From IMG/VR virus record IMGVR_UViG_3300020021_000019, positions 1 through 54,081 of that record: a stretch of DNA of 54,081 nucleotides. One strand, given 5' to 3'. This document shows, one piece after another, positions 1-45,643 of this stretch. The position numbers and the translations under genes are program-made. How positions within the stretch are numbered: position 1 is the stretch's first letter; each line of letters begins with the position of its first letter. The notes below the pieces were generated by a model, which ran no database searches, had not been told where the DNA came from, and was given only the letters and a program-made list of their open reading frames with translations. Source of the stretch: a virus. Taxonomy: Duplodnaviria > Caudoviricetes.

Positions 1-136
1 AGACGTAGCAGTCATGGATCACCGCGGCCGTCTTGATCTTGACCCGCGCATCGTCCTCCCAGAACCCCTTTACCTCGTGATACTCCTCCGTGCCGTCGAC
101 CAGGATCACCCGATAGTCCGGCGTGTAGAACGTGAG
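1..136. repeat. Terminal direct repeat, copy 1 (circular assembly overlap)
   Basis: 1-136 is identical to 53946-54081 except position 127 (A) vs 54072 (C). Confidence 0.97.
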
Positions 137-301
137 CGGCGCGAGCTTGAGCTTGACCGCCTCGAAGGCGTAGCTGGCCACCTCGCCCCGGATCCGCCGC
201 TGCTCCAGCAGCTCGCCGTAGCTGGCCTCCATCTTGTTCATCGCCCCGTGCTTGGGGCGCTGGGTGCGACCACGCGCGAAGGTCCGCTTGCCGAACGTCA
301 T
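1..301 (-). CDS. PD-(D/E)XK endonuclease-like protein (DUF1064-like); spans the junction and ends at the stop at 53881-53883
   Basis: Manual translation MTFGKRT...LTFYTPDYRVILVDGTEEYHEVKGFWEDDARVKIK...EEVPAV*; YTPD...EVKG motif; ATGA coupling at both ends. Confidence 0.8.
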   Translation of the reverse strand, partial: MTFGKRTFARGRTQRPKHGAMNKMEASYGELLEQRRIRGEVASYAFEAVKLKLAPLTFYTPDYRVILVDGTEEYHEVKGFWEDDARVKIKTAAVIHDCYV

Positions 302-666
302 GACTTTACTCCGAGATCCACTTCAAAAAGGCCGAGCTGCCCCCGGCATGGGATGAGGTCGCATCGGGACTGGAGCGCGAGCTCGAATCCGTAGGGCCCC
401 TGAAACCAGCGGCTTTTCGAAAACCGGACGCAGCCAATGATTTCAGCAAATCCCACTACGCCACCCTTCGGGAGCAGCTCGGCAGGCGGGAGCCGCTCTC
501 CCCACCCACGGTCTCTCAGGTACATATCCGCCAGGACATCCAGCTTCTTGCCGGCATGGATCGCGATGGGGCCCCGATACGTCGTTGACCAATTGCGGTT
601 CTCGATATCCTTGAGCCCTTCGGCGATCAGCCAGGCCCACGGCTGCTGGATTGACAGGGCTTTCAT
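298..666 (-). CDS. ASCH domain protein
   Basis: MKALSIQQPWAWLIAEGLKDIENRNW..YRGPIAIHAG...CRGQLGLF signature. Confidence 0.92.
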   Translation of the reverse strand: MKALSIQQPWAWLIAEGLKDIENRNWSTTYRGPIAIHAGKKLDVLADMYLRDRGWGERLPPAELLPKGGVVGFAEIIGCVRFSKSRWFQGPYGFELALQSRCDLIPCRGQLGLFEVDLGVKS

Positions 667-802
667 CGCACCTCCTCCGTCATCCACCCACTGGACAGGT
701 CCACAATCTCCGCCGGGCCGGCCGTGCTGAGCTTCGCTGCATCCCGAGTGAACGGGTGCGGCGGCGCAGGCGGCAGGGGCACGGGCGCCGGGTAGTTCAT
801 GG

Positions 803-1258
803 TCAGAGCATCCGCAGTTGGTCGCGGAGCCGGGCGGCGAGGTCGCGCGCCAGGTCCAGCTGGTGCTTCGTGTCGTCCGGGGCCATGATGCCCAGCTCGA
901 CCTGCGCTTCCTCGATCTTGGTCAGCTTCTCCACCATGAGGCTGATGCCCAGCCGCACACACGGCACGAGGTGGGGCGCCAGTCCCCACTCTTCCCGCTC
1001 GATGTTGGAATTCATCTGCTTCCGCGCTTCGACGGATTGCGCCGACAACGCGTCGATCGGCAGGGTCGCAATCCCGATCTTGGTCACCGCCTTGATGGCC
1101 GCCTCGACCGCCTTGTCGAGCAGGTCGAGCGACGTCCGCATCACCGACTGGTCGTGATTGGTCAGGCGGATCAGGTCCGCGCCCGCATCCGGTGGCAGGG
1201 TCGCGGTGGCGCCCTCAATCTCCCCCGTCTGCTTGTTGAACTTGGTTCCCTTGGGCAT
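803..1258 (-). CDS. Hypothetical protein
   Basis: Normal helical protein composition; in operon. Confidence 0.7.
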   Translation of the reverse strand: MPKGTKFNKQTGEIEGATATLPPDAGADLIRLTNHDQSVMRTSLDLLDKAVEAAIKAVTKIGIATLPIDALSAQSVEARKQMNSNIEREEWGLAPHLVPCVRLGISLMVEKLTKIEEAQVELGIMAPDDTKHQLDLARDLAARLRDQLRML

Positions 1259-1279
1259 CGTCAGTCTTTCAGTGAGGGG

Positions 1280-3001
1280 TTAGGCTGCGGCTGCGAGTTC
1301 GGTCGGGATGTTCGCCCGGACCAGAGCTTCGGCCGCTTCGGGGCAAACTGAATTGCCAATAAGTCGGACCTTGCCGGACTTGGTTTTGGCCGCCGACAGG
1401 TCGTAGCCCGCCGCGAAACGACCGAACTGCGCCCGGAGCAGCTCCTCCGGCTCCAGCATCCGGAGGCCGATATCCACGATTTGGTATTCGGTCCCCGCGA
1501 TGGTAACGAGCCCCATTCGATCCTTGGTCGTCAGGGTCCGCATTGGCTTGCGGACGGTCTGCCCGACCCCTTGCCCGTAATAGGTGACCAGGAAGGCGCG
1601 GACCTCGGCGAGGTGGTTGCCGTTGGCCGTGACCGTGGGGAGGGGCTGGTTCAGGTCGGCGCCATGATTGTCGCCACGCAGCTTGAGTAGGTTGGCCGCG
1701 ACAAGGCTGTGATGGTCGCTGGCGGTGACGGTGGCGAGCGGCTCGTGGGGAGACAGCCCGGGACGCTGGCCACGGTCGCCGAAATGCTTCGCGATGAACG
1801 CGGTGCACAGCGCGTGCTTCTGTCCGCCAGCAACCACTGTTCCGAGCGGCTGCTCGATATCGAGAGCGCGAGCCGCCTGTCCGTCCCGCTCACCGTATCC
1901 AGTCTGAATCAGGGTCGGGGCAATGAGCGCGTGGCGGTTTTCGACAGTGGTCGTCGGCAACGGCGCATCGGCTGGAGTGGTGGCCGGAGACTTCGATCCG
2001 GCATGGTCGATAGCGATCATGACTGGCGTGAGCAGCGCACGATCATTCTTGGCTGTGACCGTACCGACCGGCTCGGCCATACCAGTTGCTGGCGTCTGCC
2101 CAGCCCGGCCACCCACCCCGACGATCGATGGAACGACGACCGCATGACCACGCCGGGAGGCGGTGACGGTTGAGAGCGGCGCGTCGAGGGATTCGCTCCT
2201 GTCATCCAGGTTCCCGTGATTGACCTTGACGATGAAAGGCGCCGGATTGTCGAACACGAACCGGCGCATCCCTTCCGCGATCCGCCACAGCGTTTTGCCC
2301 GCCAGCGGCCGCTTCCGCTCGAAGATCGACGGGCACCGGAGTGACCAGTCTATGCACTCGGCCGCCGTGTGGAGTGGCTTGAGGATCGCGGCAAAGAGAT
2401 CGGGGTTGGCCGAGGCAGATCCGTGGGTGACCGCAGGCCAGAGAATCGGCACGCCATCCCGACGGGCGATCAGAAACAAGCGGCGGCGCTTGGTAGGGGC
2501 ACCGTAGGCCGAGGCATCGAGCACTCGGCAGTCCACTGCGTAGCCGAGGTTCTCCAGCCGCTTCCGCCACCGATCAAACGTCTGCCCCATCCGCGCCTTA
2601 TCTGGCCGCCCGTCCTTGCCGAGAGGGCCCCAGCCTTTGAACTCAGAGACGTTTTCCAGCATGATGATCTGCGGCCGCACGGCCTTGGCCCATCGCGTCA
2701 CCACCCAGGCCAGTGACCGGATATTCTGCTTCCGGGGCACGTTGCCCTTGGCCACGGAAAAGTGTGTACAGTCGGGGCTGGCCCAGAGCAGGTAGACCGG
2801 CTCACCGCGCGTAGCCACTTCCGGCTTCACATCCCAGATATCAGCCGTGAGATGCCGCGTCTTCGGGTGGTTGGCCCTGTGGGCCGCCAACGCCACTGCG
2901 TCGTGGTTGATCGCGAGATCTACCGGGCGGCCGAGCGCCGCCTCAATGCCAGTGGAGGCACCGCCACCGCCCGCAAATAGGTCGATCAGGAGCCCCGTCA
3001 C
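1280..3001 (-). CDS. DNA (cytosine-5) methyltransferase
   Basis: DLFAGGGG (motif I), ASPDC (IV), LENV (VI), RRRLF (VIII), IGNSV (X). Confidence 0.95.
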   Translation of the reverse strand: MTGLLIDLFAGGGGASTGIEAALGRPVDLAINHDAVALAAHRANHPKTRHLTADIWDVKPEVATRGEPVYLLWASPDCTHFSVAKGNVPRKQNIRSLAWVVTRWAKAVRPQIIMLENVSEFKGWGPLGKDGRPDKARMGQTFDRWRKRLENLGYAVDCRVLDASAYGAPTKRRRLFLIARRDGVPILWPAVTHGSASANPDLFAAILKPLHTAAECIDWSLRCPSIFERKRPLAGKTLWRIAEGMRRFVFDNPAPFIVKVNHGNLDDRSESLDAPLSTVTASRRGHAVVVPSIVGVGGRAGQTPATGMAEPVGTVTAKNDRALLTPVMIAIDHAGSKSPATTPADAPLPTTTVENRHALIAPTLIQTGYGERDGQAARALDIEQPLGTVVAGGQKHALCTAFIAKHFGDRGQRPGLSPHEPLATVTASDHHSLVAANLLKLRGDNHGADLNQPLPTVTANGNHLAEVRAFLVTYYGQGVGQTVRKPMRTLTTKDRMGLVTIAGTEYQIVDIGLRMLEPEELLRAQFGRFAAGYDLSAAKTKSGKVRLIGNSVCPEAAEALVRANIPTELAAAA

Positions 3002-3303
3002 GGCAGCACCGTGATGGCGTAGGCCTTGCCTTTATCCCGACGAATCCAGCCCCGGCGCTCCAGCGCGGTCAGATGCTCGTGGACTGAGGCCAACGACTTG
3101 AAGCCCAGGGCGCGGGCCATCGCCTCGAACGACGGTGCGCTGCCCGTTGCCGTAATGCGGTCCGCGACGAACGCCAAGACCCGCCGCTGCTTCGCCGTCA
3201 GCGGGTGCTTCCGCTCACCCCGGAGCGCCGCCAGTTCATCCCGGAGCGTGGCGTTCTCGGCCTGGAGCGAGCGCACCTGCTCTTCGAGGCCCGTAGCGGT
3301 CAT
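2998..3303 (-). CDS. LexA-like N-terminal winged-helix DNA-binding protein with no peptidase domain
   Basis: LTAKQRRVLAFV...APSFEAMARALGFKSLASVHEHLTALERRGWIRR, preceded by a coiled coil. Confidence 0.88.
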   Translation of the reverse strand: MTATGLEEQVRSLQAENATLRDELAALRGERKHPLTAKQRRVLAFVADRITATGSAPSFEAMARALGFKSLASVHEHLTALERRGWIRRDKGKAYAITVLP

Positions 3304-3419
3304 GACTTCCACCGGATCGGATAGACCCGCCGCCGGGTCCAGTACCAGCGCGCGGCGGCGAGGGTGCCGATCGTCCAGATCATGCCGCTGATGGCGAGAC
3401 GGGTGGCTGGGTCGGTCAT
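3300..3419 (-). CDS. Small membrane peptide (39 aa)
   Basis: MTDPATRLAISGMIWTIGTLAAARWYW...; ATGA-coupled to both neighbours. Confidence 0.55.
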   Translation of the reverse strand: MTDPATRLAISGMIWTIGTLAAARWYWTRRRVYPIRWKS

Positions 3420-3826
3420 GTCATCACCGTCTTGAGCACCGGGAACTCATGGCCTTCGACCACCACCAGGATTAGGCCCTGGTACTTGATCCGTTCACCG
3501 TCTTTCTCGCCCTTTTCCCGGGCCTCCAGCACCATCCGCATAAGCCAGGAGTAGAGGCCTTCGCCGCGTGCACCGGTCCGGCGCCAGAGCGGCAGAGCAC
3601 GCAGGCTCGCATTGTCGATCGCGTGGCCGGTGAGCTCTACCGCGGGCATTGTGTCGCCCCGGCGCTCGAACTCCGCCTTGGCGAGCAGGCGCCACCGTTC
3701 GGGCAGTCCGACATTGTTGGCCATCCACCGGACATAGGAGACCGGGACCCGGGTGAGCAGCTCGCCTGAGTGCTTTCCGAAGTCCATGGTGACACCGTGG
3801 GTGCTCAGCGGGTCAGCGGTGTTCAC
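3416..3826 (-). CDS. DUF3820-like protein
   Basis: MDFGKHSGELLTRVPVSYVRWM motif. Confidence 0.75.
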   Translation of the reverse strand: MNTADPLSTHGVTMDFGKHSGELLTRVPVSYVRWMANNVGLPERWRLLAKAEFERRGDTMPAVELTGHAIDNASLRALPLWRRTGARGEGLYSWLMRMVLEAREKGEKDGERIKYQGLILVVVEGHEFPVLKTVMT

Positions 3827-4086
3827 GCGACTTCATCCTCGTCCAGGTCGACGCCGGTTTCCCGCTTGACCATTGCCGCGTAGGTCCGGCGTGCCCGGGC
3901 CCGGCGCAACTGCGCGCCCTGCGCGCGCCACTCGGCTTGCCGCTCCAGTCGGTCCATGACCGAGAGGAGCCGGATGATCGGCCCGGCGCCGCAGAGCAAG
4001 ACCGCAAAGGCCAGCAGCGCGTAGAACAGGGGGCTGAGTTCCCGCAGGAATTGGGGCCACATAGAGGCCTCTCCCAGGAGCGGCAC
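3823..4086 (-). CDS. Hypothetical membrane protein
   Basis: One hydrophobic segment; overlaps the downstream gene start. Confidence 0.6.
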   Translation of the reverse strand: MPLLGEASMWPQFLRELSPLFYALLAFAVLLCGAGPIIRLLSVMDRLERQAEWRAQGAQLRRARARRTYAAMVKRETGVDLDEDEVA

Positions 4087-4109
4087 GGCGTGAGTTGTTC
4101 GATGCTGAG

Positions 4110-4191
4110 TGCCCGGTCGGGGATTCGAACCCCGCTTGGCCGGGGAGTGGTCCCCGTCCGTCCAGTCGCACCGCCGAAGCTGGTGCCGGGC
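4110..4191 (-). ncRNA. tRNA-like RNA (acceptor stem and T-arm, non-canonical centre)
   Basis: GCCCGGC...CGGGG-TTCGAAT-CCCCG-ACCGGGC-A; intergenic; no recognisable anticodon arm. Confidence 0.65.
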
Positions 4192-4197
4192 GCCATC

Positions 4198-4425
4198 CTA
4201 TTTGTCGATCGGGTCCCACCGGTCCAGGCCGTCGAAGGCACGGTCCTGCTGGCGCGCGAAACTCAGTGCCTTGTCGGGTGACAACCCCTCGGCTACGCCC
4301 TGGTAGTAGAAGCGGAGCATCCGGGTCGCCCATTCGGCGAGGTTGGGCAGGCTGGTCCGCTCGGCCATCGTCTTGAGTGAGGCGACCGCATGCGGCACCG
4401 GCTGGCCCTCGATCGTGCTGGGCAT
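4198..4425 (-). CDS. Hypothetical protein
   Basis: MPSTIEGQ start coupled to the upstream stop. Confidence 0.6.
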   Translation of the reverse strand: MPSTIEGQPVPHAVASLKTMAERTSLPNLAEWATRMLRFYYQGVAEGLSPDKALSFARQQDRAFDGLDRWDPIDK

Positions 4426-4604
4426 CAGAAGCCCCTCCCGGAGAACTTGAGGAAGGCGCAGACCCATGAAGCCACCCACGCTCCGGCAAAGAGGCCCGTC
4501 AGGTTGTCATTCTGGGTGCCTCCAGTGAAGCAGATATACGCCAGCATGAAGAACAGGATGCCGACAATGAACAACAGGCGGCCGACCGTCTCGACTTTCA
4601 TCAT
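4425..4604 (-). CDS. Small 2-TM membrane protein
   Basis: Manual translation MMKVETVGRLLFIVGILFFMLAYICF...; fills the gap with coupled ends. Confidence 0.6.
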   Translation of the reverse strand: MMKVETVGRLLFIVGILFFMLAYICFTGGTQNDNLTGLFAGAWVASWVCAFLKFSGRGF

Positions 4605-4927
4605 ACGGTCCCCGTCGTCGGCTTCTTCCGGTCCCGCTCGGCCGCCTCCCGGTCATGCCGCCGCTGGGCGTAGCGATCGGCTGCGAGTATCCCAGCCAGG
4701 CTGCCCGTGGAGATCAGCGACACCACCAGAAGAGAGAGCCCGCTGTGTCTGGCTTCGCAGAGACACCAGAAGGCCCAAGTGAAGCAACACAGAAGGGCCC
4801 CATGCTCGAAGGCAGGGAACGGCTCGTATTTGTTCATGGTCCTGATGCCGGACAACAAGGCGAAGAAGCCGAACACGCAGGCCACGTAGAGCGTGCCGAG
4901 GCCGAACCAATGGAAGAGGGCGCTCAT
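4601..4927 (-). CDS. Hypothetical membrane protein
   Basis: About 3 hydrophobic segments. Confidence 0.65.
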   Translation of the reverse strand: MSALFHWFGLGTLYVACVFGFFALLSGIRTMNKYEPFPAFEHGALLCCFTWAFWCLCEARHSGLSLLVVSLISTGSLAGILAADRYAQRRHDREAAERDRKKPTTGTV

Positions 4928-5226
4928 GATTCGACCGCCGCTCGCTTGGCCGCGACCCGTTCCGCCTGCTCCTGCCTGAAGTCGGCTTTCCGTTCCTTGT
5001 CCGCGAGGTGCGGCGGGGTCGTGCTGTAGTTCTCGATCCAGTCCGCGGTCGGCCCGTACTGCGCTTGCCGGGCGGCAACCGTTTTCCGAATGGCGGCCAG
5101 CGCGTCGGCCTCAGTCGGGAAGGCGGTGCCGAGGGCGTTCCCCCCGACCTGGTAGAGCAGCCCGTCCTTGGGATCAAGACAGCAGGGCCGCGACCGGCTG
5201 ATGCCGGAGTAGACGGTGATGGGCAT
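4924..5226 (-). CDS. Hypothetical protein
   Basis: In-operon ORF. Confidence 0.65.
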   Translation of the reverse strand: MPITVYSGISRSRPCCLDPKDGLLYQVGGNALGTAFPTEADALAAIRKTVAARQAQYGPTADWIENYSTTPPHLADKERKADFRQEQAERVAAKRAAVES

Positions 5227-5228
5227 GG

Positions 5229-5837
5229 TCAAAAAGGAAGCGATTCGTCGTCCGCTTCATGCGGCGGCGGGAAGTCGTCGTAGTCCTCGGCCGCGGCCTT
5301 CGCCATCGGCGTGATGTCGTTCAGGTGCTTGGCCGCCTCCGCCGCGTACTCCTCTTTCTTCTTGGCCCAGAACGGAGCGCGGGTATAGGGTTCGGCGACG
5401 AGGGCCGGCATCGCCTTCGGCAGCTTGGTTACCGTCATAATCTTGGCGGATTTCTTGCCGGTACCGCTCGTCTTGTGGCCCACCGTCAGCAGCGCGTTAT
5501 GGCCCACCAACTTGTCGACTGCGATCCCTTCCTTGGCCTGCTCCTCCGTGTAGGGCTTGCCACGCCACGACTCCAGGTCCCGCCGCAGATTGGCCTTCTC
5601 CCACATCGACAGCGTGTATTCGGTCGACAACTCGAACGGCTTGCCGTCCTGCCGCTTGGCGTCGAGTTGCCAGACCAGCGCGATCTTCGTCCGGATGGCC
5701 CCCACCTGTCCCGGGTACTGATCCCACTTCTGGCCCAGCGCGATCACGTCGACGCAGATCGCCTGGTGCGTGTCCTCCGGCGCCAGCTCCCGGGGAACGG
5801 CTTCATCCTTCGCGGTGACCTTATCCGGGCCGGTCAT
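5229..5837 (-). CDS. Probable ssDNA-binding/replication protein (NGO0469-like family)
   Basis: THQAICVDVIALG...EYTLSMWEKANLRRDLESWRG; SSB-type acidic tail DDESLPF. Confidence 0.75.
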   Translation of the reverse strand: MTGPDKVTAKDEAVPRELAPEDTHQAICVDVIALGQKWDQYPGQVGAIRTKIALVWQLDAKRQDGKPFELSTEYTLSMWEKANLRRDLESWRGKPYTEEQAKEGIAVDKLVGHNALLTVGHKTSGTGKKSAKIMTVTKLPKAMPALVAEPYTRAPFWAKKKEEYAAEAAKHLNDITPMAKAAAEDYDDFPPPHEADDESLPF

Positions 5838-6049
5838 GACGCCACCTCGCCCTGCCGGGCATCGAACCAGCGCCGGAAGTTCTCCGGATCCATTGCGGGT
5901 GGCCCCGTGTGGTCGCCCTCCGCGCAGTCGCGGCATCGGCCACTGATGGCTTCATGGGCCCACATCGGGCCGCCGCAGGCCAGGCACTCGGCATCGCCGG
6001 GGCGTGGCTCCTCAGTCTCTTGGGGTGTAACAACTCGGGTGGATTCCAT
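5834..6049 (-). CDS. Small zinc-ribbon protein
   Basis: CLAC...CRDC. Confidence 0.6.
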   Translation of the reverse strand: MESTRVVTPQETEEPRPGDAECLACGGPMWAHEAISGRCRDCAEGDHTGPPAMDPENFRRWFDARQGEVAS

Positions 6050-6151
6050 CGGGTACGCTCTCCGTGTAGGTTGACTTACGGCGTTGCTTGCCGTCTCTCC
6101 AGCGCCCGGCGTTCACAGCGTCGGGCGGCTTGTTGTTCAGGCCCAGTCCAT

Positions 6152-6313
6152 CTAGTTCACCGCTCTCAGGTCATCCAGCAGTCGGTCCAACGGGCTCCGC
6201 TGCTCCAGCAGCTTCCGGCAGTCGATCAGGTGACTGGCCTTGTGCGCTGACCAATCGGCCGGGTTGATCGGTTTCAGACAAAACGGGCACGTCGCTTTCG
6301 GTTGCCAATTCAT
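6152..6313 (-). CDS. Small C2H2-type zinc finger protein
   Basis: CPFC-x11-HKASH. Confidence 0.55.
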   Translation of the reverse strand: MNWQPKATCPFCLKPINPADWSAHKASHLIDCRKLLEQRSPLDRLLDDLRAVN

Positions 6314-6488
6314 CGCCCGCCTCCTTCTGTCGTGCAGCGTGCGCATCGCGGTGCGTGCGCTGGTGAAGATCCCAATACCTCGGTTCAACTTCGGCCTGAC
6401 AGGTGGGACACCGCGGCATGGCGCTGAATCCCGCCGCCGTCGCCGCGTCCCGCAGCCGCTGCTGAAACCGCGATTTCGTCGGCTTCAT
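6171..6488 (-). CDS. C2H2-type zinc finger protein
   Basis: CPTC-x11-HQRTH; ATGA-coupled start. Confidence 0.55.
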   Translation of the reverse strand: MKPTKSRFQQRLRDAATAAGFSAMPRCPTCQAEVEPRYWDLHQRTHRDAHAARQKEAGDELATESDVPVLSETDQPGRLVSAQGQSPDRLPEAAGAAEPVGPTAG

Positions 6489-6658
6489 GCGGGTACCGCC
6501 TCAACCGCTTCCGCCCGCGTCCCGGTCCAGCCGAACTTCCGGGCCCGGCGCTCCGCTTCCTGCTTCGCCCTCTGCTCCGACCGGGCGGCGATCCGGAGCC
6601 GCTGACCCCCGGCCATCAGGACGTCGTAGAAGTGCAGCGTCTCGCCCCGGTACTTCAT
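6485..6658 (-). CDS. Hypothetical protein
   Basis: MKYRGET start; coupled at both ends. Confidence 0.6.
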   Translation of the reverse strand: MKYRGETLHFYDVLMAGGQRLRIAARSEQRAKQEAERRARKFGWTGTRAEAVEAVPA

Positions 6659-7098
6659 GACGCCCGCCGCTCGAGCTCGGCCTGGATCGCCGCGATCGCG
6701 ATCTCCTCGGCCCCGTGGTGCTCGACCTTCTCCTTGAGCGCCCGCTGCAGGTCCTCCGTCGAATCCGTCTCGTGGAACACGGCGAGCGCCGCACTGGACT
6801 CCGATCCCTCCAGGCAGGCCCGGCACAGCGCCTTGGCGAGAGTCGGCAGTGCCTCATCAGGCAACCCCTTCGCCCGCTCGATCCGCTGCTGCAGCTCGGC
6901 CAGTGGACCCGGCAGGTTGCGCAGCGCGAAGACCGACTTCTCGATCACATCGAACGCCCGGTCCAGCGTCCAGCGGACATTCGGCACCCGGACATTCAGG
7001 GCCGCCGAGAGGACCTGGCGCCGACCCCGAATTCTTCCAGACTCGGGAAGGGTGGTTACGGGGGTGCCGGCAGACTGCGGTAGGCTGGTGGACATCAC
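6655..7098 (-). CDS. Hypothetical protein (CII-like position)
   Basis: Second gene of the early operon; helical. Confidence 0.6.
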   Translation of the reverse strand: MMSTSLPQSAGTPVTTLPESGRIRGRRQVLSAALNVRVPNVRWTLDRAFDVIEKSVFALRNLPGPLAELQQRIERAKGLPDEALPTLAKALCRACLEGSESSAALAVFHETDSTEDLQRALKEKVEHHGAEEIAIAAIQAELERRAS

Positions 7099-7295
7099 GC
7101 AGCCTGCTCTTCCATGATCTTGATGGCCTTCTCCACGGCGGCTTCCACGATGAAGTCACCGCGCTTCTTCTGAACGTGGGCCGCAGCGATATCCACCAGC
7201 CGCTTATCGGATGGCCGACACCGGCCACCAATCGTCGGCCAGCCTTCCTTGCTCTGGCCTGAATCGGGGGGTACGTTCTCGGAAGCCATTGCCAC
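7095..7295 (-). CDS. Ribbon-helix-helix (DUF1778/TacA-like) regulator in the Cro position
   Basis: TIGGRCRPSDKRLVDIAAAHVQKKRGDFIVEAAVEKA pattern; divergent from the repressor. Confidence 0.7.
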   Translation of the reverse strand: MAMASENVPPDSGQSKEGWPTIGGRCRPSDKRLVDIAAAHVQKKRGDFIVEAAVEKAIKIMEEQAA

Positions 7296-7355
7296 CTCAG
7301 CACTTAGAGTGTTGTGATGCTATTTGCCATCAAACAGCGTTGCTAGCGCGTCGAT

Positions 7356-10889: not shown

Positions 10890-11209
10890 GGCTTGGCCTC
10901 GGGGATGGGCTGTTCGTTGGAGTCATTCACGCGCCGGCCCGGTATCTGCCCCGCGAGGACTTGAGTCGTGCCGGCCTTGCCGCTGGCCTGGCCGAAGGCG
11001 CTGGCCGCCACCCCGACGGTGACCGGTACCAGCGCGGCACCGCCCAGCCAGAGCAGGATCGACGTGTCGTCCTTCTTGAAGGCGAGGAACAGCGAGGCCA
11101 CGAAGGCTGCCACGAACGCCAAGGCCGCGGCGACCAGGACGAACAGTTTCTTGGCCCGGTCGTAGTCGAGCGCTCCCTCGGTATCCGAGATCCAGCGGAG
11201 GCGACTCAT
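10886..11209 (-). CDS. Putative holin (2 TM)
   Basis: Two TM helices and a charged C-terminus; immediately upstream of the endolysin. Confidence 0.65.
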   Translation of the reverse strand: MSRLRWISDTEGALDYDRAKKLFVLVAAALAFVAAFVASLFLAFKKDDTSILLWLGGAALVPVTVGVAASAFGQASGKAGTTQVLAGQIPGRRVNDSNEQPIPEAKP

Positions 11210-11517
11210 GCCGTCCCCCACAACGCGGCCACGGCCTCGACCAGTGCCTCATTCGTGAACGGCTTGGCCAGGGTCGCGTGGGAGTAGCCGGAGACGGTGA
11301 CGACGGGCACGTCAGGAAAGACGAGCGCGATATCGTGGCCGGAGCCATCAGGCAGGCGCTCATCCAGCACCATCGCGTCCCACGGCCCTTCGAGTGCCAG
11401 CGCTTGCCCCATCGAGTCCGCCGCCGCGACGAGGTACCCCGCATCCACCAGGACCCGGACCATCGCTTCGCGGATCGCCCGCTCGTCATCCACCACCAGT
11501 ATGCGTTTCGTGGTCAT
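11206..11517 (-). CDS. Single-domain response regulator (CheY-like receiver)
   Basis: ILVVDDE, phospho-acceptor MVLD-ERLPDGSG, TVSG, LAKPF. Confidence 0.93.
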   Translation of the reverse strand: MTTKRILVVDDERAIREAMVRVLVDAGYLVAAADSMGQALALEGPWDAMVLDERLPDGSGHDIALVFPDVPVVTVSGYSHATLAKPFTNEALVEAVAALWGTA

Positions 11518-40925: not shown

Positions 40926-41698
40926 GCGGCGACCTCGCCTTTCGGTGGTGCGGCAGTCCAACTCGATCCATCCAACGCGGTCACTTTCGCCAGCACCCGC
41001 TCCGCCCGTCTGATGCAGCCGGCCAGAAACTCAGGGCTGAGACTCCGATCCTCGATCAGCGGGAAGTCCGCCAGCGCCTTACACAGCGAGGCCACCGAAC
41101 AGGGACGGCCTTCCGGCCGGTCAACACCCTCCAGCCACATCAGGAACCGGCGGGCCCAGGTATCCTGATCCGTGCTGGCCGGGAGTTTCTCGAACCATTC
41201 GACCACCGCATGGCGGTCCGGCTGTCCGAAAATCCGTCCGACCAACTCATCCACGGCAGCAGCAGGAACGTTCGTTCGTTCGTTCGTACCGTCCGTAGCC
41301 CCCACTTTCGCTTCACTTTTCCCCCACTTTTCCCCCATTTTTCCCTCAACAACTTCTGGGGGTTTTATGGGGGGTCGACTCCCTGACGGCTTCTTTTTGT
41401 CTTGCTCCCGGCGGGCCAGAAGTTTCTCCTGACGCCACCAGCCGCGGAGGTCGCCATCGGGGCACCATTCGCGCATGGCCTTGGCGAACTGGCCTTCCTT
41501 GCCGCGCCAGAGGGCCCACGATTCGAGCGCGATGTCGGGCACCTGATCGATCCGGCCATCCTGCCGGTGCTCCCCAAAGGCGCAGCACATCGCGTTGTAG
41601 TGGCCCAGCGCGTGGGCCTGCTGGATCTTGAGCCGGTCGGCCAGGAACAGCACGACTTCAGACCGTGGCGTCGCCACATCCCATCGTATCCAGGTCAT
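40922..41698 (-). CDS. Replication initiator-like protein
   Basis: MTWIRWD N-terminal wHTH-like region, low-complexity linker, helical C-terminal domain. Confidence 0.65.
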   Translation of the reverse strand: MTWIRWDVATPRSEVVLFLADRLKIQQAHALGHYNAMCCAFGEHRQDGRIDQVPDIALESWALWRGKEGQFAKAMREWCPDGDLRGWWRQEKLLARREQDKKKPSGSRPPIKPPEVVEGKMGEKWGKSEAKVGATDGTNERTNVPAAAVDELVGRIFGQPDRHAVVEWFEKLPASTDQDTWARRFLMWLEGVDRPEGRPCSVASLCKALADFPLIEDRSLSPEFLAGCIRRAERVLAKVTALDGSSWTAAPPKGEVAA

Positions 41699-43464
41699 CG
41701 CCGGGCCTCCAGGAAGAGCACGGGCTTAGCGACGACTCGGCCGGTGGACGGGTAGTCGATGAAGCCAAGGGTCCGGAGTCGGCTGACGGCGTTGGCAAAT
41801 CCCTTCGAGGCGAGATTGCCGTACCCGGCTGCCGCGGCGACCGTGGTCTTTTCCAGGGAGTCAGGGTAGGCCTCGATAATCGGACGGAGGATCTTCTCCG
41901 AGGCCCCGCCGAGGACCGCGAGCAACCGTGCCTGCAGCTCCTGGGTGGATCGTGGCGCCGCGACTGCGTTGGCGTTGTCGCGGCCATGATCGGTGAGCGC
42001 GACGACGCCTGGAGCGGGGTAGGTGATCGCGCCCGCAGTCTTCAATCCGCTGATGGCGTTCGCGAAGCCTTTGCTGGCGAGGTTGCTGTACCCGGCGAGT
42101 AGCGCCACCAGTTCCTTCTCTGGGTTCTCCGATCCCAGCGCCTCGAGCTCGGCCAAGGCATCGAGGATGCGCTGCTCGACGCCCGACACCCCCCCAAGGC
42201 TCGCCTTCCGGGCCATCGGAATGGCAGTCTTCCGGATTGCCGCCCTCGTTTGAGGCGGGACGCGGTGCGTCTCCCTCGAGAAGTTTCCTGCCAGAATCAC
42301 TGGTGGCTTCAGGAGGCGCGCGAACGCGCTCTCAAAGCGGCTTACCGACTCGGCGTTGTCCGCCACGAGCTGGCGGGCCACGGCGGTATTCGATTCGAGG
42401 TGCGCCGAGAGCTGCTCCACGGCCGCACGCTCCTCAGCCGTGAGCATCGGGACTTCCCGTATATCTGGCTTGACAGATAACGGGGCAGGGGAGGCCGCCG
42501 CCGCCTTCTGCCGAACATCCCGCTCGAGCTCAGCAATTCGCCGGCGCAGGGCCTTGGGATCGTCCTGCTCGGCTGTCTTGACGACCTCGGCCAGATCGGT
42601 GCGCAGCGCCTCGACGTCGACCTTAGCCAGCGTGGCGGCCTTTGCAGCTTTGCCGACCTCCGGGGTCGCTGAGGCGTCGAAGGTGGTCTTCTTGGCGAAG
42701 TGCACCCGCTGGAAGATCCGGAGCCAGGACGGCGACCAGACGTAGCCTTCGGCTTGGGCCAAGCCGGGGAGCTCACCGACCAGTTTGCGATCGGCGCCGG
42801 CCTCCTGGACCCACTCATCGAGCGCCTTCCGCTCGTGGGTGCCGTTGACCTGCAGGACGCAGAGGCACTCGACCTGCGAGAGCACCTCCTTGTTAACCGA
42901 TTGCGGCCGCTGGGTGACCAGCGTGGCGCCGACCCCGTAGTTCCGGCCCAGTCGGATGATGTTCTCGAACGCCCCCAGCATCCGCGCCTCGTCTGGGCCC
43001 GTCCGCTGCGGGATGAACTTCTGCGACTCTTCCACGACCAGGTGCACGGCCGACCGCTGGGTCTTCTTGAGGTGGAAGAATTCCTCGGCGAAGGCCGCGG
43101 CGAACCGCTTCCGCTCACCCTCTCGAAATGGCGAGAGGTCAAGCACGGCCGACACCCGCTTCTCGACCAGGAACCGGGCCACCTTGGCGCCCGACTCCGG
43201 AGTCAGCGGTACGTCGCCGTGCTCCCCACCGAGGACGAAGATGTCTTTGCCCTTGCCCTTCCCATCGGCCGCGACACGGAGGGACCACCAATTCCCGACC
43301 GGATCGATCACGATGACCTGGGCGCCGGCGTCCAGCATCTGCTCCGCGAGCAGCTGGGCCAGGTAGGTCTTGCCGGCGCCTTTGCGGCCGATCGCGGCCA
43401 AGGTCTGCGTGACCGCATCGAGCGGGAGCGACAGCTCGCGGGCCAGCTTGAGGGAGGTGGTCAT
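41695..43464 (-). CDS. HerA/FtsK-like (DUF87) ATPase with tandem C-terminal winged helices
   Basis: GRKGAGKT, VIDPVG, LVVEE, RLGRNYG, TQRP. Confidence 0.9.
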   Translation of the reverse strand: MTTSLKLARELSLPLDAVTQTLAAIGRKGAGKTYLAQLLAEQMLDAGAQVIVIDPVGNWWSLRVAADGKGKGKDIFVLGGEHGDVPLTPESGAKVARFLVEKRVSAVLDLSPFREGERKRFAAAFAEEFFHLKKTQRSAVHLVVEESQKFIPQRTGPDEARMLGAFENIIRLGRNYGVGATLVTQRPQSVNKEVLSQVECLCVLQVNGTHERKALDEWVQEAGADRKLVGELPGLAQAEGYVWSPSWLRIFQRVHFAKKTTFDASATPEVGKAAKAATLAKVDVEALRTDLAEVVKTAEQDDPKALRRRIAELERDVRQKAAAASPAPLSVKPDIREVPMLTAEERAAVEQLSAHLESNTAVARQLVADNAESVSRFESAFARLLKPPVILAGNFSRETHRVPPQTRAAIRKTAIPMARKASLGGVSGVEQRILDALAELEALGSENPEKELVALLAGYSNLASKGFANAISGLKTAGAITYPAPGVVALTDHGRDNANAVAAPRSTQELQARLLAVLGGASEKILRPIIEAYPDSLEKTTVAAAAGYGNLASKGFANAVSRLRTLGFIDYPSTGRVVAKPVLFLEARR

Positions 43465-43724
43465 ACCCGCCTCCAGGTGTAGCCATTGACGCTGGTGATC
43501 TGGTGGGCGAGGGATAGCCGCCGGCAGGCAGCATCCGCGGCATGACTCGACAGATCCGACCGTCGCGCGATCTCCATCACGCCGAACGTGCCGCTGGCCA
43601 GCACATCGAGCACCCGGCGCTCCTGCTCCTCCGGGCCCGGCGTGTGGTCGTGGCGGTCCGTGGTGCGCGGGACGTGGATGCGGGGGCCGTAGTTCGGCAA
43701 CCGGCGTTGGCTCGGGAGGGTCAT
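43461..43724 (-). CDS. Winged-helix protein
   Basis: VLDVLASG..EIARRSDL..CRRL..I..NGYTW. Confidence 0.65.
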   Translation of the reverse strand: MTLPSQRRLPNYGPRIHVPRTTDRHDHTPGPEEQERRVLDVLASGTFGVMEIARRSDLSSHAADAACRRLSLAHQITSVNGYTWRRV

Positions 43725-43772
43725 GCCAGCGTTCCCCGTGCAACAATCGGGGTGAATTGGGCCAAAGTGGAA

Positions 43773-44065
43773 TGTCTACGCCGTTTGTCTACGCCGGGGG
43801 CACAATTCGGCGCCTTTTCGGCTGACTTGGACCCTCCTTTATATCTGCGTACCGAGCCAGAAACAGGCGTGCTAGCGGAACCCCATGTCGGTGTGCCAGA
43901 TGGGGCAAAAGTGCTTTCCCCGCTTATGTCTGATAAGCGTGAGGTCCGAAGTTCAAATCTTCGCAGGCCCATTTCGTAACCCCTTGTGGTGTTAGGTAGT
44001 TGCAGTGATCCGGCGTAGACGCGACTGTGTGTCATTTGGGGCTGTCTACGCCGTTGTCTACGTCG
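43773..44065. promoter_or_regulatory. attP with arm-type repeats TGTCTACGCCG
   Basis: Copies at 43773-43783, 43786-43796, 44043-44053, 44055-44065 (1 mismatch) and an inverted copy at 44011-44020. Confidence 0.85.
43930..43971 (+). other. attP core: 3' half of tRNA-Ile(GAT)
   Basis: CTGATAA-GCGTG-AGGTC-CGAAG-TTCAAAT-CTTCG-CAGGCCC-A; 5' half absent; adjacent to the integrase. Confidence 0.9.
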
Positions 44066-45332
44066 GATCATGGTGCACCTCGGCCACTTCCCCTCGAATC
44101 CTCGCCCGGATCACCTTCGCTCCGTCCCTTGCCGTCTTGCTCTCCTGGTCCCGGTAGATGCGTTCCGGCACCTGCGTATCCGACCACCCGCCGATCTCTT
44201 TCAGCTCATCCCGGCTCGCGCCGCCTTCCACCGTTGCATCGACCGCCTGGCGCCGGATGCCGTAGGGGCCGCGGCCATCTGCGTGCTCGATCTGGCAGGC
44301 CACCTCGTTCAGTCGGTGCCACTTCCGCACGGCCGTCCCGGTCACCGGCTCGGCGTCCGCCTGCGCGGGCCTGGCCACCCCTTCACCCTTCCGTCCGCCT
44401 TTGAGTTGTCCCTGGGGGAAAAGCGGGTAATCGATGGCCAGCTTCTCGAGATCGCGGAGATAGCCATCGATCAGGCAGGCCTGCACGATGATGAGCTGTC
44501 CGGTCGTCAGGTGTACGACGGCGCCCCGCTTCTTCCCCCGGCCCCGCACCGTGAAGGTCCCGGCCTCGAGGTCAACGTCCGATCGGCGTTGTTTCCGCAC
44601 CTGGCCGAGTCGGAGCTCGGCCCCCAACGTGAGCAGCAGGCCGTACCGGGGCTCGATCTTCGGCGCGTTCCGAATCAGGGCCCGCATCTCCTCGAGCGTG
44701 TAGCGCGGCCGCTTGGGCTCTGGGGCTTCCAGCTCATCGCGCAGCTTCTTCTTCCACTGGGACTCCGGTAGACACTGGCCCTCCTCGATGTGCCCTTCAT
44801 CGCGGAGCCACTGCGCCACCGCCAGGAGCCGGCCGACCGTGATCTCGGCGCCCCGGACCCCGATGTGCCCCTCTTTCCGAAGTTCCCGGGCGCGCCGCCG
44901 TCCGAGCTCCCGGATGTCCGCTTTGCCGATCGTGGCGAACGTCCGTGCCGGGCCCCAGATCCGGGTGATGTCGGTCATCGCCCGGAGCACCTCCCGGCGA
45001 TGCGGCGTGTCCTTCGGGTAGCAGCCCCGATCCCGATCCTGCATCAGCACGGTCGCCTGGGCGATCGTGAGCGGAGCCGCGGCGCGACGCTCGACAGCCG
45101 GCAGGTTGCCGAGCAGCGCCTGGTGCTTGGCCTCCGCTTCTTTGATGGCCCACCGTTCCACCTCCTTCAGGATCCGACCGTTCGCCATCCGGAGCATTTT
45201 CTTGAGGGAGCGGTAGCGCCAGTTCTTCTGGTCGCGCCATATCAGGTAGAGCCGGTGGCCCCGCGTGGCGAGCTCCAGCACCGTCACCTTGTGCGGAATC
45301 TCCCCGACGCCATAGGACCACGGTTCGGTCAT
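44058..45332 (-). CDS. int: Tyrosine integrase
   Basis: ELRLGQ (R), GRGK (K), YGIRR, IGGW, RIY; next to attP and xis. Confidence 0.92.
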   Translation of the reverse strand: MTEPWSYGVGEIPHKVTVLELATRGHRLYLIWRDQKNWRYRSLKKMLRMANGRILKEVERWAIKEAEAKHQALLGNLPAVERRAAAPLTIAQATVLMQDRDRGCYPKDTPHRREVLRAMTDITRIWGPARTFATIGKADIRELGRRRARELRKEGHIGVRGAEITVGRLLAVAQWLRDEGHIEEGQCLPESQWKKKLRDELEAPEPKRPRYTLEEMRALIRNAPKIEPRYGLLLTLGAELRLGQVRKQRRSDVDLEAGTFTVRGRGKKRGAVVHLTTGQLIIVQACLIDGYLRDLEKLAIDYPLFPQGQLKGGRKGEGVARPAQADAEPVTGTAVRKWHRLNEVACQIEHADGRGPYGIRRQAVDATVEGGASRDELKEIGGWSDTQVPERIYRDQESKTARDGAKVIRARIRGEVAEVHHDPT

Positions 45333-45643
45333 GACGCCTTCTCCAGCCGGACGGCATTGGGGGCAATCCGGTAGCCCCGACCGGCGCGCTCGGCGGGCAG
45401 CTGCCCCTGGTGGATCCAGTTCCGTACCGTCTGCTCCGCAATCCCATGCGCCGCGGCGTACTGCTCGACTGAGACGGTGGCGCACTCCGCCTTGAGCATT
45501 GCGCAGCGGGTGTCCAGCTCCCCGGCGCACCAGTCCAGGGCATCGGCGACCGGATCGGACTTCGCCACCTTCCGCCGGCGCTCCGCCTCGGCCCGCCAGT
45601 CCCGGGACACGGACTGCACGGAGGCGAGGAGTTCGTAGATCAT
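45329..45643 (-). CDS. xis: Excisionase-like HTH protein
   Basis: VSVEQYAAAHGIAEQTVRNWIHQGQLPAERAGRGYRI. Confidence 0.8.
   Translation of the reverse strand: MIYELLASVQSVSRDWRAEAERRRKVAKSDPVADALDWCAGELDTRCAMLKAECATVSVEQYAAAHGIAEQTVRNWIHQGQLPAERAGRGYRIAPNAVRLEKAS

What the first reader, a model, noticed from the sequence alone, without database searches (positions are those of the whole stretch)
4110..4191. tRNA-like RNA with acceptor stem and perfect T-arm but no anticodon arm
Seen: an 82-nt intergenic element in the early operon with a 6-bp acceptor stem (7th pair C-A), discriminator A and T-arm CGGGG-UUCGAAU-CCCCG. The D-arm position holds ACC-A-GC-UUCG-GC-GGU (a cUUCGg tetraloop). The central hairpin CGGGGA-CCAC-UCCCCG has a 4-nt loop, not a 7-nt anticodon loop. 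No CCA is encoded. It does not resemble the Ile attP core. Inference: a tRNA mimic, for example an RNase P/Z processing signal in the early mRNA, a Y-RNA-like element, or a decoy for tRNA-targeting defence. Two ASCH/PUA-like proteins in the same operon are possible partners.
Basis: partly seen in the sequence, partly recalled or inferred. Interest (0 to 1): 0.7.

Follow-up and report, generated by a model that had tools for sequence, protein, structure and literature searches.

The report
tRNA-shaped relic without an anticodon loop
A soil phage carries an 82-base stretch that keeps the top half of a transfer RNA but has no anticodon loop, so it cannot read codons; it has no relatives in the databases searched and is most likely a processed leftover of a tRNA gene, not a proven new kind of RNA.

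Summary
On the minus strand, 4191 to 4110, there is a 6-bp acceptor stem (7th pair C.A), discriminator A, a perfect T-arm, no CCA and no 7-nt anticodon loop. The tRNA frame is not chance: 1 in the window, 0 in 300 shuffles. In 719 kb of unrelated phage DNA the same filter hit only real tRNAs (5 of 5). It is not a callable tRNA. ARAGORN finds nothing, and no Rfam family reaches its threshold. The best tRNA-clan alignment (tRNA-Sec, 12.1 bits against 47) deletes the anticodon arm. The inner half, including the cUUCGg hairpin, is no more stable than shuffles. The element lies in a 135-nt gap between two ORFan genes of a temperate siphovirus from a soil metagenome. I found no homologue in any collection, no RNA data and no sequence variation, so conservation and covariation cannot be tested. 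Best reading (0.42): a tRNA-derived, non-decoding element whose acceptor/T minihelix is still cut out by RNase P and 3' processing, splitting the operon transcript. Main rival (0.28): a neutral pseudogene. A decoy role is possible but has no supporting evidence. Only one ASCH protein was found, 3.4 kb away. Interest is moderate to low. In passing I found a well-supported 111-nt anticodon-less tRNA-shaped family in other phage contigs.

The parts
4110..4191 (-). whole 82-nt tRNA-shaped element (RNA position p = 4192-p)
4185..4191 (-). acceptor 5' strand GCCCGGC (positions 1-7)
   Evidence: pairs with 4111-4117, 6 Watson-Crick pairs plus C.A
4170..4184 (-). hairpin ACC-A-GC-UUCG-GC-GGU in the D-arm position (8-22): 5 pairs, one bulge, 4-nt loop
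   Evidence: Alone -3.3 kcal/mol, and 32 of 200 shuffles fold as well
4157..4169 (-). 13-nt linker GCGACUGGACGGA (23-35). It holds ACUGGA, which may be a remnant of a D-loop (A..GG..A); this is inferred
   Evidence: The model R2 alignment to tRNA-Val(GAC) of L051 places it over that tRNA's D-arm
4141..4156 (-). central hairpin CGGGGA-CCAC-UCCCCG (36-51), extendable to 33-54. It is either an anticodon arm with a 4- or 6-nt loop, or a long variable arm
   Evidence: z -2.07. The tRNA-Sec model aligns it as the variable arm. ARAGORN at 80% threshold reads it as an anticodon arm with a 6-nt loop
4135..4140 (-). 6-nt linker GCCAAG (52-57)
4118..4134 (-). T-arm CGGGG-UUCGAAU-CCCCG (58-74)
4110..4117 (-). 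acceptor 3' strand ACCGGGC (75-81) and discriminator A (82). No CCA follows
4198..4425 (-). upstream 75-aa ORFan gene. Its TAG stop at 4198-4200 lies 6 nt before the element
3823..4062 (-). downstream 79-aa ORFan gene with one predicted membrane helix. Its ATG is 47 nt after the element
4068..4075 (-). Shine-Dalgarno-like GGGAGAGG, 5 nt before the ATG of the downstream gene
   Evidence: read

Best explanation
The element descends from a tRNA gene and can no longer decode. It keeps the 12-position acceptor/T-arm minihelix and a consensus T-loop. This is the part of a tRNA that RNase P, the 3' trimming enzymes and the CCA-adding enzyme recognise. Its lower half is irregular and has no 7-nt anticodon loop. 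It is transcribed as part of the minus-strand operon, between a 75-aa and a 79-aa ORFan gene. The most likely course is that RNase P cuts before G1 (4191) and 3' processing ends the RNA at A82 (4110), with CCA added afterwards. That would cut the polycistronic mRNA 6 nt after the upstream stop codon and about 47 nt before the downstream start codon, and release a stable RNA of about 82-85 nt. Shown here: the tRNA-derived frame, the failure to qualify as a tRNA, and the intergenic, same-strand position. Inferred: transcription, cleavage, CCA addition and any effect on the two genes.
For: - The frame is tRNA-specific: 1 in the window, 0 in 300 shuffles. The same filter hits only ARAGORN tRNAs, 5 of 5, in 719 kb of unrelated phage DNA.
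- The acceptor stem has 6 of 7 Watson-Crick pairs, the T-stem 5 of 5, and the T-loop is UUCGAAU.
- It is not a tRNA by any detector. ARAGORN at default settings reports 0 genes. Rfam at gathering thresholds reports 0 hits. RF00005 over the whole record lists only the attP fragment, at 19.1 bits. The best tRNA-clan match is tRNA-Sec at 12.1 bits against a threshold of 47, with the anticodon arm deleted.
- All neighbouring genes are on the same strand, and no sigma-70-like promoter or minus-strand terminator lies in the gap.
[quoted passage not shown] RNase P also processes non-tRNA substrates, including phage RNAs and polycistronic operon mRNAs (PMC11143913).
Against: - There is no expression or end-mapping data: the only runs holding the sequence are 2 DNA runs of the source sample.
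- No homologue was found, so selection on the structure cannot be shown.
- The 7th acceptor pair is a C.A mismatch and position 8 is A rather than U.
- If the 8-22 hairpin forms, the D-loop GG needed for the tRNA elbow is missing. This may weaken recognition by the processing enzymes.
- The inner half folds no better than shuffles, which also fits a neutral relic.
Confidence: 0.42

Rival explanations
1. Neutral pseudogene: a phage tRNA gene that was inactivated, for example by an insertion near positions 8-9 and a shortened anticodon loop. It is decaying and has no remaining role, even if it happens to be processed.
For: The inner half is not more structured than shuffles. It can be read as a canonical cloverleaf order plus defects: a 12-15-nt extra hairpin, a D-loop-like ACUGGA, a 5-bp stem with a 6-nt loop, and a 6-nt variable loop. 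A distant contig carrying a homologue of the neighbouring 136-aa gene has three ordinary tRNA genes 1.2 kb upstream of it (L009). Pseudo-tRNAs are commonly reported in phage genomes (search listing).
Against: All 11 Watson-Crick pairs of the top half and all 7 T-loop bases are intact, while the lower half is unrecognisable. Uniform decay would not be so uneven. Phage genomes tend to lose useless DNA (general knowledge).
Confidence: 0.28
2. Trans-acting tRNA mimic: the released RNA binds or titrates a host factor or defence protein that recognises the acceptor/T half of tRNAs.
For: The top half is intact and there is no decoding part. Other phage contigs carry tRNA-shaped RNAs without an anticodon loop and with covariation support (the 111-nt family), as well as reduced minihelices (L109, L110). 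So phages do keep such RNAs.
Against: There is no partner gene in the window: no Ro60/TROVE, RNA ligase or nucleotidyltransferase among 49 ORF candidates. The element has no promoter of its own. It is not a member of the 111-nt family (8.7 bits). It is a singleton.
Confidence: 0.12
3. Relic of an attachment site: only the 3' 25 nt (T-arm plus acceptor 3' strand) is a copied tRNA fragment left by an integrative element. The 5' complement and the inner hairpins are fortuitous.
For: Partial tRNA genes left by integrating elements are common (PMC9897764, abstract read). The phage is temperate and carries a separate tRNA-Ile 3' half as attP. The inner region is not significantly structured.
Against: By my estimate, a 6-bp Watson-Crick complement at tRNA distance has about a 4% chance. 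The central hairpin is matched by only 5 of 200 shuffles. No integrase lies nearby; the only one is at 44058-45530.
Confidence: 0.07
4. An irregular but chargeable tRNA of the tRNA-Sec/allo-tRNA kind, used outside normal decoding.
For: The D-position hairpin has a long stem and a tetraloop, and the central hairpin looks like a long variable arm. Both are described for tRNA-Sec and allo-tRNAs, many of which come from soil and are inactive in translation (PMC5389517, sections 13 and 16 read). The best tRNA-clan hit is tRNA-Sec.
Against: There is no anticodon arm. The acceptor/T branch is 7/5, not 8/5, 8/4 or 9/3. The score is 12.1 bits against a threshold of 47. The discriminator is A, not G or U.
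Confidence: 0.05

Closest known systems
Canonical bacterial or phage tRNA (Rfam RF00005)
   Same: Acceptor stem, discriminator base, T-stem and T-loop. It sits between genes of a phage operon.
   Different: No 7-nt anticodon loop, no regular D-arm, and A at position 8. It falls below every detector threshold.
tRNA-Sec and allo-tRNAs (Mukai et al. 2017, PMC5389517)
   Same: A long D-position stem with a tetraloop, a long variable-arm-like hairpin, and a soil origin. Many of those tRNAs are inactive in translation.
   Different: A 7/5 acceptor/T branch and no anticodon arm. The tRNA-Sec model gives only 12.1 bits.
tRNA-like module of bacterial Y RNAs (YrlA, Yrn1; PMC4201824)
   Same: A tRNA mimic that does not decode. 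Yrn1 has a 5-bp stem with a 6-nt 'anticodon' loop. The M. smegmatis YrlA, which has a 7-bp acceptor stem, is cut by RNase P and receives CCA.
   Different: No Ro60 gene, no long Ro-binding terminal stem and no Rfam hit.
tmRNA tRNA-like domain
   Same: A tRNA top half without an anticodon.
   Different: No tag reading frame and no pseudoknots. ARAGORN's tmRNA search finds nothing, and there is no G3:U70 pair.
mascRNA / MEN-beta tRNA-like (RF01684)
   Same: A tRNA-like element cut out of a longer transcript by RNase P and RNase Z.
   Different: Those are eukaryotic. Only the T-arm aligns, at 16.5 bits against a threshold of 42.5.
111-nt tRNA-shaped family of uncultured phages (found here; alignment A1, model R1)
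   Same: Phage-borne, tRNA-shaped, no anticodon loop, a UUCG-capped arm, and a position just upstream of a small gene.
   Different: That family has a promoter-like site of its own, an encoded CCA, a regular D-loop GG and a very long variable arm. Its model R1 scores the window element at only 8.7 bits. The shared GCUUCGGC and T-loop motifs are there by construction of my scan.

Membership tests
tRNA (RF00005) | 7-bp acceptor stem with a discriminator base | tested here: met
   6 Watson-Crick pairs plus C.A, then A
tRNA (RF00005) | 5-bp T-stem and a 7-nt T-loop of consensus UUCRANY | tested here: met
   CGGGG-UUCGAAU-CCCCG
tRNA (RF00005) | anticodon arm: 5-bp stem with a 7-nt loop | tested here: not met
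   The only candidate has a 4-nt loop, or 6 nt if the A-U pair opens
tRNA (RF00005) | D-arm with U8 and a GG-bearing loop of 7-11 nt | tested here: inconclusive
   Position 8 is A. The 8-22 hairpin has a UUCG loop. A possible remnant, ACUGGA, follows at 26-31
tRNA (RF00005) | score at or above the gathering threshold (29 bits), or an ARAGORN call | tested here: not met
   Not listed at E<=1 in the whole record or at E<=10 in 92 nt. ARAGORN reports 0 genes. tRNAscan-SE was not available
tRNA-Sec / allo-tRNA | long D-stem with a tetraloop, and a long variable arm | tested here: met
   5 pairs plus a bulge with a UUCG loop; a 6-8-pair central hairpin. Features as described in PMC5389517, section 13
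tRNA-Sec / allo-tRNA | acceptor/T branch of 8/5, 8/4 or 9/3, and a 6-bp anticodon stem with a 7-nt loop | tested here: not met
   The branch is 7/5 and there is no anticodon arm. RF01852 gives 12.1 bits against 47
Bacterial Y RNA (YrlA) | encoded next to a Ro60 (TROVE) gene, with a long terminal stem that binds Ro | tested here: not met
   No TROVE domain in 49 ORF candidates. The ends form only a 7-position acceptor stem. No Rfam hit
tmRNA | tRNA-like domain plus a tag reading frame and pseudoknots | tested here: not met
   ARAGORN's tmRNA search finds nothing, even at the 80% threshold. No Rfam hit
111-nt phage tRNA-shaped family (R1) | significant match to the family covariance model | tested here: not met
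   8.7 bits, E 0.05 in 1.3 kb, resting on motifs that my scan had fixed
Intrinsic terminator | GC-rich hairpin followed by a U run on the transcribed (minus) strand | tested here: not met
   The scan of 3000-5500 finds none on the minus strand within the element
RNase P / CCA-adding substrate (works like, not a family) | cleavage at G1 and CCA addition at A82 | not testable with these tools
   No RNA run holds the sequence

The most novel reading that the evidence does not exclude
The element is one instance of an unrecognised class of phage-encoded 'top-half' tRNA mimics. These are RNAs that keep the acceptor/T minihelix, have lost or capped the anticodon arm, and are selected for a role outside decoding, such as titrating a host or defence factor that reads tRNA ends, or punctuating operon transcripts. 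Other instances would be the 111-nt family (18 distinct sequences, 8 covarying pairs) and the 46- to 68-nt minihelix-like elements in L109 and L110.
Probability: 0.13. Interest if true: 0.7.

Novelty: new variant of a known kind. Interest (0 to 1): 0.36.

Why it matters
If the element is processed as proposed, it would show a temperate phage using a disabled tRNA as a cutting signal inside an operon, much as mitochondria use tRNAs to punctuate their transcripts. If it acts in trans, it would add to the few known bacterial or phage tRNA mimics. As it stands, it is a single sequence with no relatives and no RNA data. Its practical value is as a worked example: a perfect tRNA top half that every standard detector misses. 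It also led to better-supported anticodon-less tRNA-shaped RNAs in other phage contigs.

Tried and rejected
Homologue searches that found nothing useful:
- megablast of 3000-6000 and blastn of the element against 50,697 phage records. One search gave no match. One search gave 4 records, each covering 26% of the query or less.
- IMG/VR pattern scans (0 matches).
- IMG/VR searches for relatives of the upstream ORF, the downstream ORF and the portal (none).
- Relatives of the 136-aa neighbour: 8 loci, GC 0.375-0.448, none sharing another neighbouring gene.
- Relatives of the ASCH gene: 64 loci. Seven also have the methylase and 1 the resolvase. None has the flanking ORFs or an uncalled tRNA frame.
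- GTDB genome pattern scan: 1 match, a tRNA-Leu(CAG) of a Fidelibacterota MAG that shares only the acceptor and T-arm letters the pattern demanded.
- JGI metagenome pattern scan: 7 loci. Six are canonical tRNA-Lys or tRNA-Glu, and 1 is an unrelated low-GC stretch.
- blastn of the 3' 35 nt against plasmids: nothing below E=1.
- tblastn of the 136-aa protein against phage records: none.

Other attempts:
- Sequencing runs: no RNA holder is listed. The only holders are 2 DNA runs of the sample the contig probably came from. Laying them showed no variant letters, indels or joints over 2500-6000.
- The single-sequence model R2, run over 183 sources (1.74 Mb), found only ordinary tRNAs at 28.9 bits or less, plus L109.
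- ARAGORN with lowered thresholds or with introns allowed gave only mutually inconsistent low-score models.
- Stop-codon read-through or a split gene was considered, because the two flanking ORFs share a frame with a single TAG between them. I rejected it: the chance is about 0.14 by my estimate, and frame GC3 falls to 0.60-0.65 over 4125-4080.
- The 22-nt direct repeat 4100-4121 / 4257-4278 (77% identical) is about what chance gives.
- The protein atlas gave no host clue.
- Earlier findings of this scan were not open, and relatives cannot be drawn for a virus record.

Full report
WHAT IS THERE. The window is a 54,081-base IMG/VR virus record. It was assembled from a soil metagenome, and the only public runs holding it are two DNA runs of one sample. 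Nearly all its genes lie on the minus strand. They include:
- small and large terminase, portal, scaffold, major head and tail genes;
- a tyrosine integrase at 44058-45530;
- next to the integrase, a copy of the 3' half of a tRNA-Ile(GAU), the probable attP, at about 43925-43975.

That fragment is nearest to alphaproteobacterial replicons in the plasmid collection (best match Methylosinus, 92.7% over 41 nt; 72 records). This is a weak hint of the host.

The finding lies in a run of small minus-strand genes at 1-7300. This run also holds a LexA-type DNA-binding protein, a C5 cytosine methylase, one ASCH protein and a resolvase fragment.

THE OBSERVATION.
- an acceptor stem of six Watson-Crick pairs, with C.A at the seventh position;
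- discriminator A, followed by CUC rather than CCA;
- the T-arm CGGGG-UUCGAAU-CCCCG;
- a bulged five-pair hairpin with a UUCG loop directly after the acceptor strand;
- a six-pair hairpin with a four-base loop in the middle.

RNAfold recovers these helices (MFE -43.6 kcal/mol, z -2.35).

The element sits in a 135-nt gap. The upstream gene (4198-4425) stops 6 nt before it. The downstream gene (3823-4062) starts 47 nt after it and has a good Shine-Dalgarno sequence. Both genes are ORFans: each matches only itself among 5.8 billion proteins.

IS IT MORE THAN CHANCE? The tRNA frame is. A strict filter (T-loop consensus, five Watson-Crick T-stem pairs, six consecutive acceptor pairs, length 68-95) finds one frame in the window and none in 300 dinucleotide shuffles. 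In 72 phage loci fetched for unrelated reasons (718,980 bases) it finds five frames, all of them ARAGORN tRNAs, and no uncalled frame even when the length range is widened to 40-124. So the element descends from, or copies, a tRNA.

The lower half is a different matter. The UUCG hairpin alone (-3.3 kcal/mol) is matched by 32 of 200 shuffles. Positions 8-57 are matched by 20 of 200, and the central hairpin by 5 of 200. CTTCGG occurs 55 times in this GC-rich window. The 'cUUCGg tetraloop' is therefore a true reading, but it is not evidence of design.

IS IT A tRNA? No.
- ARAGORN at default settings finds no tRNA or tmRNA in the window.
- At 80% threshold, or with introns allowed, ARAGORN offers only mutually inconsistent models. 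One has a six-base 'anticodon' loop and uses part of the UUCG hairpin as acceptor strand.
- No Rfam family reaches its gathering score.
- The tRNA model's best match in the whole record is the attP fragment (19.1 bits). The element is not listed at E<=1.
- When Rfam is given only 92 bases, it returns the T-arm alone (mascRNA, 16.5 bits against 42.5). The best tRNA-clan match is tRNA-Sec at 12.1 bits against 47. In that alignment the anticodon arm is deleted and the central hairpin is taken as the variable arm.

Two readings of the lower half remain open.
(a) A tRNA-Sec/allo-tRNA-like scaffold that lacks the anticodon arm: a long D stem with a tetraloop and a long variable arm, features described in PMC5389517, section 13.
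(b) A class I cloverleaf with an extra hairpin at positions 8-22, a D-loop remnant ACUGGA, a five-pair stem with a six-base loop, and a six-base variable loop. This reading comes from the alignment of my single-sequence model to a tRNA-Val(GAC) of L051.

Neither reading leaves a usable anticodon loop.

RELATIVES. I found none. The searches were: cultured phage records; IMG/VR by pattern and by five proteins; one scan of GTDB genomes; one scan of JGI metagenomes; and the plasmid collection.
- The genome scan returned one tRNA-Leu(CAG) that shares the acceptor and T-arm letters the pattern required.
- The metagenome scan returned six ordinary tRNAs and one unrelated stretch.
- Loci with relatives of the 136-aa neighbour or of the ASCH gene share no other gene with the flanks of the element.
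- The source sample shows no variant.

HOW IT MOST LIKELY WORKS. What survives intact is exactly the part of a tRNA that the processing enzymes read: a stack of 7 acceptor and 5 T-stem positions with a consensus T-loop and a discriminator base. From passages I read:
- RNase P also cuts phage RNAs and polycistronic operon mRNAs (PMC11143913).

The element lies on the coding strand of an operon, and no promoter-like or terminator-like site of its own was found. I therefore take it to be excised from the transcript. This would separate the message of the 75-aa gene from that of the 79-aa membrane-protein gene and leave a small stable RNA. This is inference, and I give it 0.42.

The main rival is a neutral pseudogene (0.28). 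It explains the unremarkable lower half. It explains less well why all 11 Watson-Crick pairs and 7 loop bases of the top half are intact.

A trans-acting mimic or decoy (0.12) is not excluded, but no partner gene speaks for it. There is no Ro60, RNA ligase or nucleotidyltransferase among 49 ORF candidates. There is only one ASCH gene, 3.4 kb away, and no second one is detectable.

A relic attachment-site fragment with a fortuitous 5' complement gets 0.07. Such fragments are common (PMC9897764, abstract).

An irregular but chargeable tRNA gets 0.05.

COMPARISON AND NOVELTY. The element works like the tRNA-like modules of Y RNAs, tmRNA or mascRNA in that it has a tRNA top half without decoding. 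It fails the defining tests of each of those families, and of tRNA, tRNA-Sec/allo-tRNA and the 111-nt family described below (see the membership table). Irregular, inactive tRNA-like genes from soil bacteria and their phages are in print (PMC5389517, sections 13 and 16), and large sets of candidate tRNA-like structures in viral contigs have been listed (PMC10690425, passages). I could not see the supplements of either paper; they may hold something alike. My four literature searches on phage tRNA-like elements, tRNA mimics, pseudo-tRNAs and truncated tRNAs listed nothing that describes this architecture. I rate it a new variant of a known kind.

SEEN IN PASSING. It was ascertained by GCTTCGGC plus a T-loop motif.
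- It turned up a 109-111-nt tRNA-shaped family in low-GC contigs: 23 copies, 18 distinct sequences. The family has a promoter-like site just upstream, a seven-pair acceptor stem, discriminator A, an encoded CCA, a UUCG-capped arm in place of the anticodon arm, and a long variable arm. RNAalifold predicts 31 pairs, 8 of them with compensatory double changes. A small gene of unknown family starts 13-29 nt downstream. ARAGORN, Rfam at gathering thresholds (on L052 and L028) and the cultured phage collection do not know it.
- A GC-rich contig (L109) carries two uncalled reduced tRNA-likes side by side, 68 nt and 46 nt. L110 carries a 46-nt minihelix.

These show that phages do keep anticodon-less tRNA shapes. 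That keeps the bolder reading of the window element alive, although the element is not a member of any of these groups.

Noticed in passing
L011:4984-5094, L013:3031-3141, L028:4525-4633, L052:8177-8287, L089:1293-1401 and 13 more loci (alignment A1): A 109-111-nt tRNA-shaped RNA family in low-GC uncultured phage contigs: 23 copies, 18 distinct sequences. It has a promoter-like TTTACA/TATAAT site upstream, a 7-bp acceptor stem, A plus an encoded CCA, a UUCG-capped arm instead of an anticodon loop, and a long variable arm. Of 31 predicted pairs, 8 show compensatory changes. A gene of about 105-117 aa from no known family usually starts 13-29 nt downstream. ARAGORN does not call it, Rfam (tested on L052 and L028) has no gathering hit, and it is absent from cultured phage records.
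   Followed up: partly
L109:7549-7616 and L109:7425-7470 (minus strand); L110:922-967: A GC-rich viral contig has two neighbouring tRNA-like elements that ARAGORN does not call, lying after an ORF. One is 68 nt with a UACG-capped 5-bp hairpin in place of an anticodon arm. The other is a 46-nt 'minihelix' of a 7-bp acceptor stem plus T-arm only. L110 has a similar 46-nt minihelix. The flanking ORFs have no PHROG match.
   Followed up: partly
L014:8116-8182, L024, L031, L033, L055, L079, L093, L094: A recurring short tRNA-like element (acceptor GGCGGTG/CATCGCC, discriminator G, T-arm with two G.U pairs, only about 30 nt between acceptor and T-arm) directly after a UUCG-capped terminator-like hairpin in AT-rich phage contigs. 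ARAGORN does not call it.
   Followed up: no
L069:1860-1928 region and L069:416-822: A 116-nt tRNA-shaped frame with a large insertion lies near a GOLLD RNA (322.7 bits) and a tRNA in a 180-kb phage contig.
   Followed up: no
L051:2247-5880 (same sequence in part in L108): A GC-rich viral contig with 33 tRNA genes in 3.6 kb, plus one 85-nt frame with a Ser-like acceptor that ARAGORN does not call (L051:4187-4271).
   Followed up: no
window 43902-43975: A copy of the 3' half of a tRNA-Ile(GAU), next to the integrase (44058-45530): the probable attP. It scores 19.1 bits with the tRNA model and is nearest to alphaproteobacterial replicons (Methylosinus, 92.7% over 41 nt).
   Followed up: partly
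window 3823-4479 minus strand: The two ORFs flanking the element are in the same frame, with a single TAG (4198-4200) and no other stop across the element. Frame GC3 stays at 0.85-0.90 down to about 4140, then falls to 0.60-0.65. I judged this to be chance (about 0.14).
   Followed up: partly
window 4181-4195 plus strand: A terminator-like hairpin with a T-rich tail on the strand opposite to all local genes, overlapping the 5' end of the element.
   Followed up: no
window 41695-43746 and 11206-11517: A 683-aa HerA-like ATPase with a weak Mrr_N match lies beside the attP and integrase. A stand-alone response-regulator receiver domain protein (103 aa) lies among small genes after the tail module.
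   Followed up: no
L015, L018, L019, L038, L041, L058, L084, L096, L111: A near-identical 54-nt stretch (a UUCG-capped hairpin followed by a T-loop-like motif) recurs in nine contigs. In L015 it lies next to four tRNA genes and a manA RNA.
   Followed up: no
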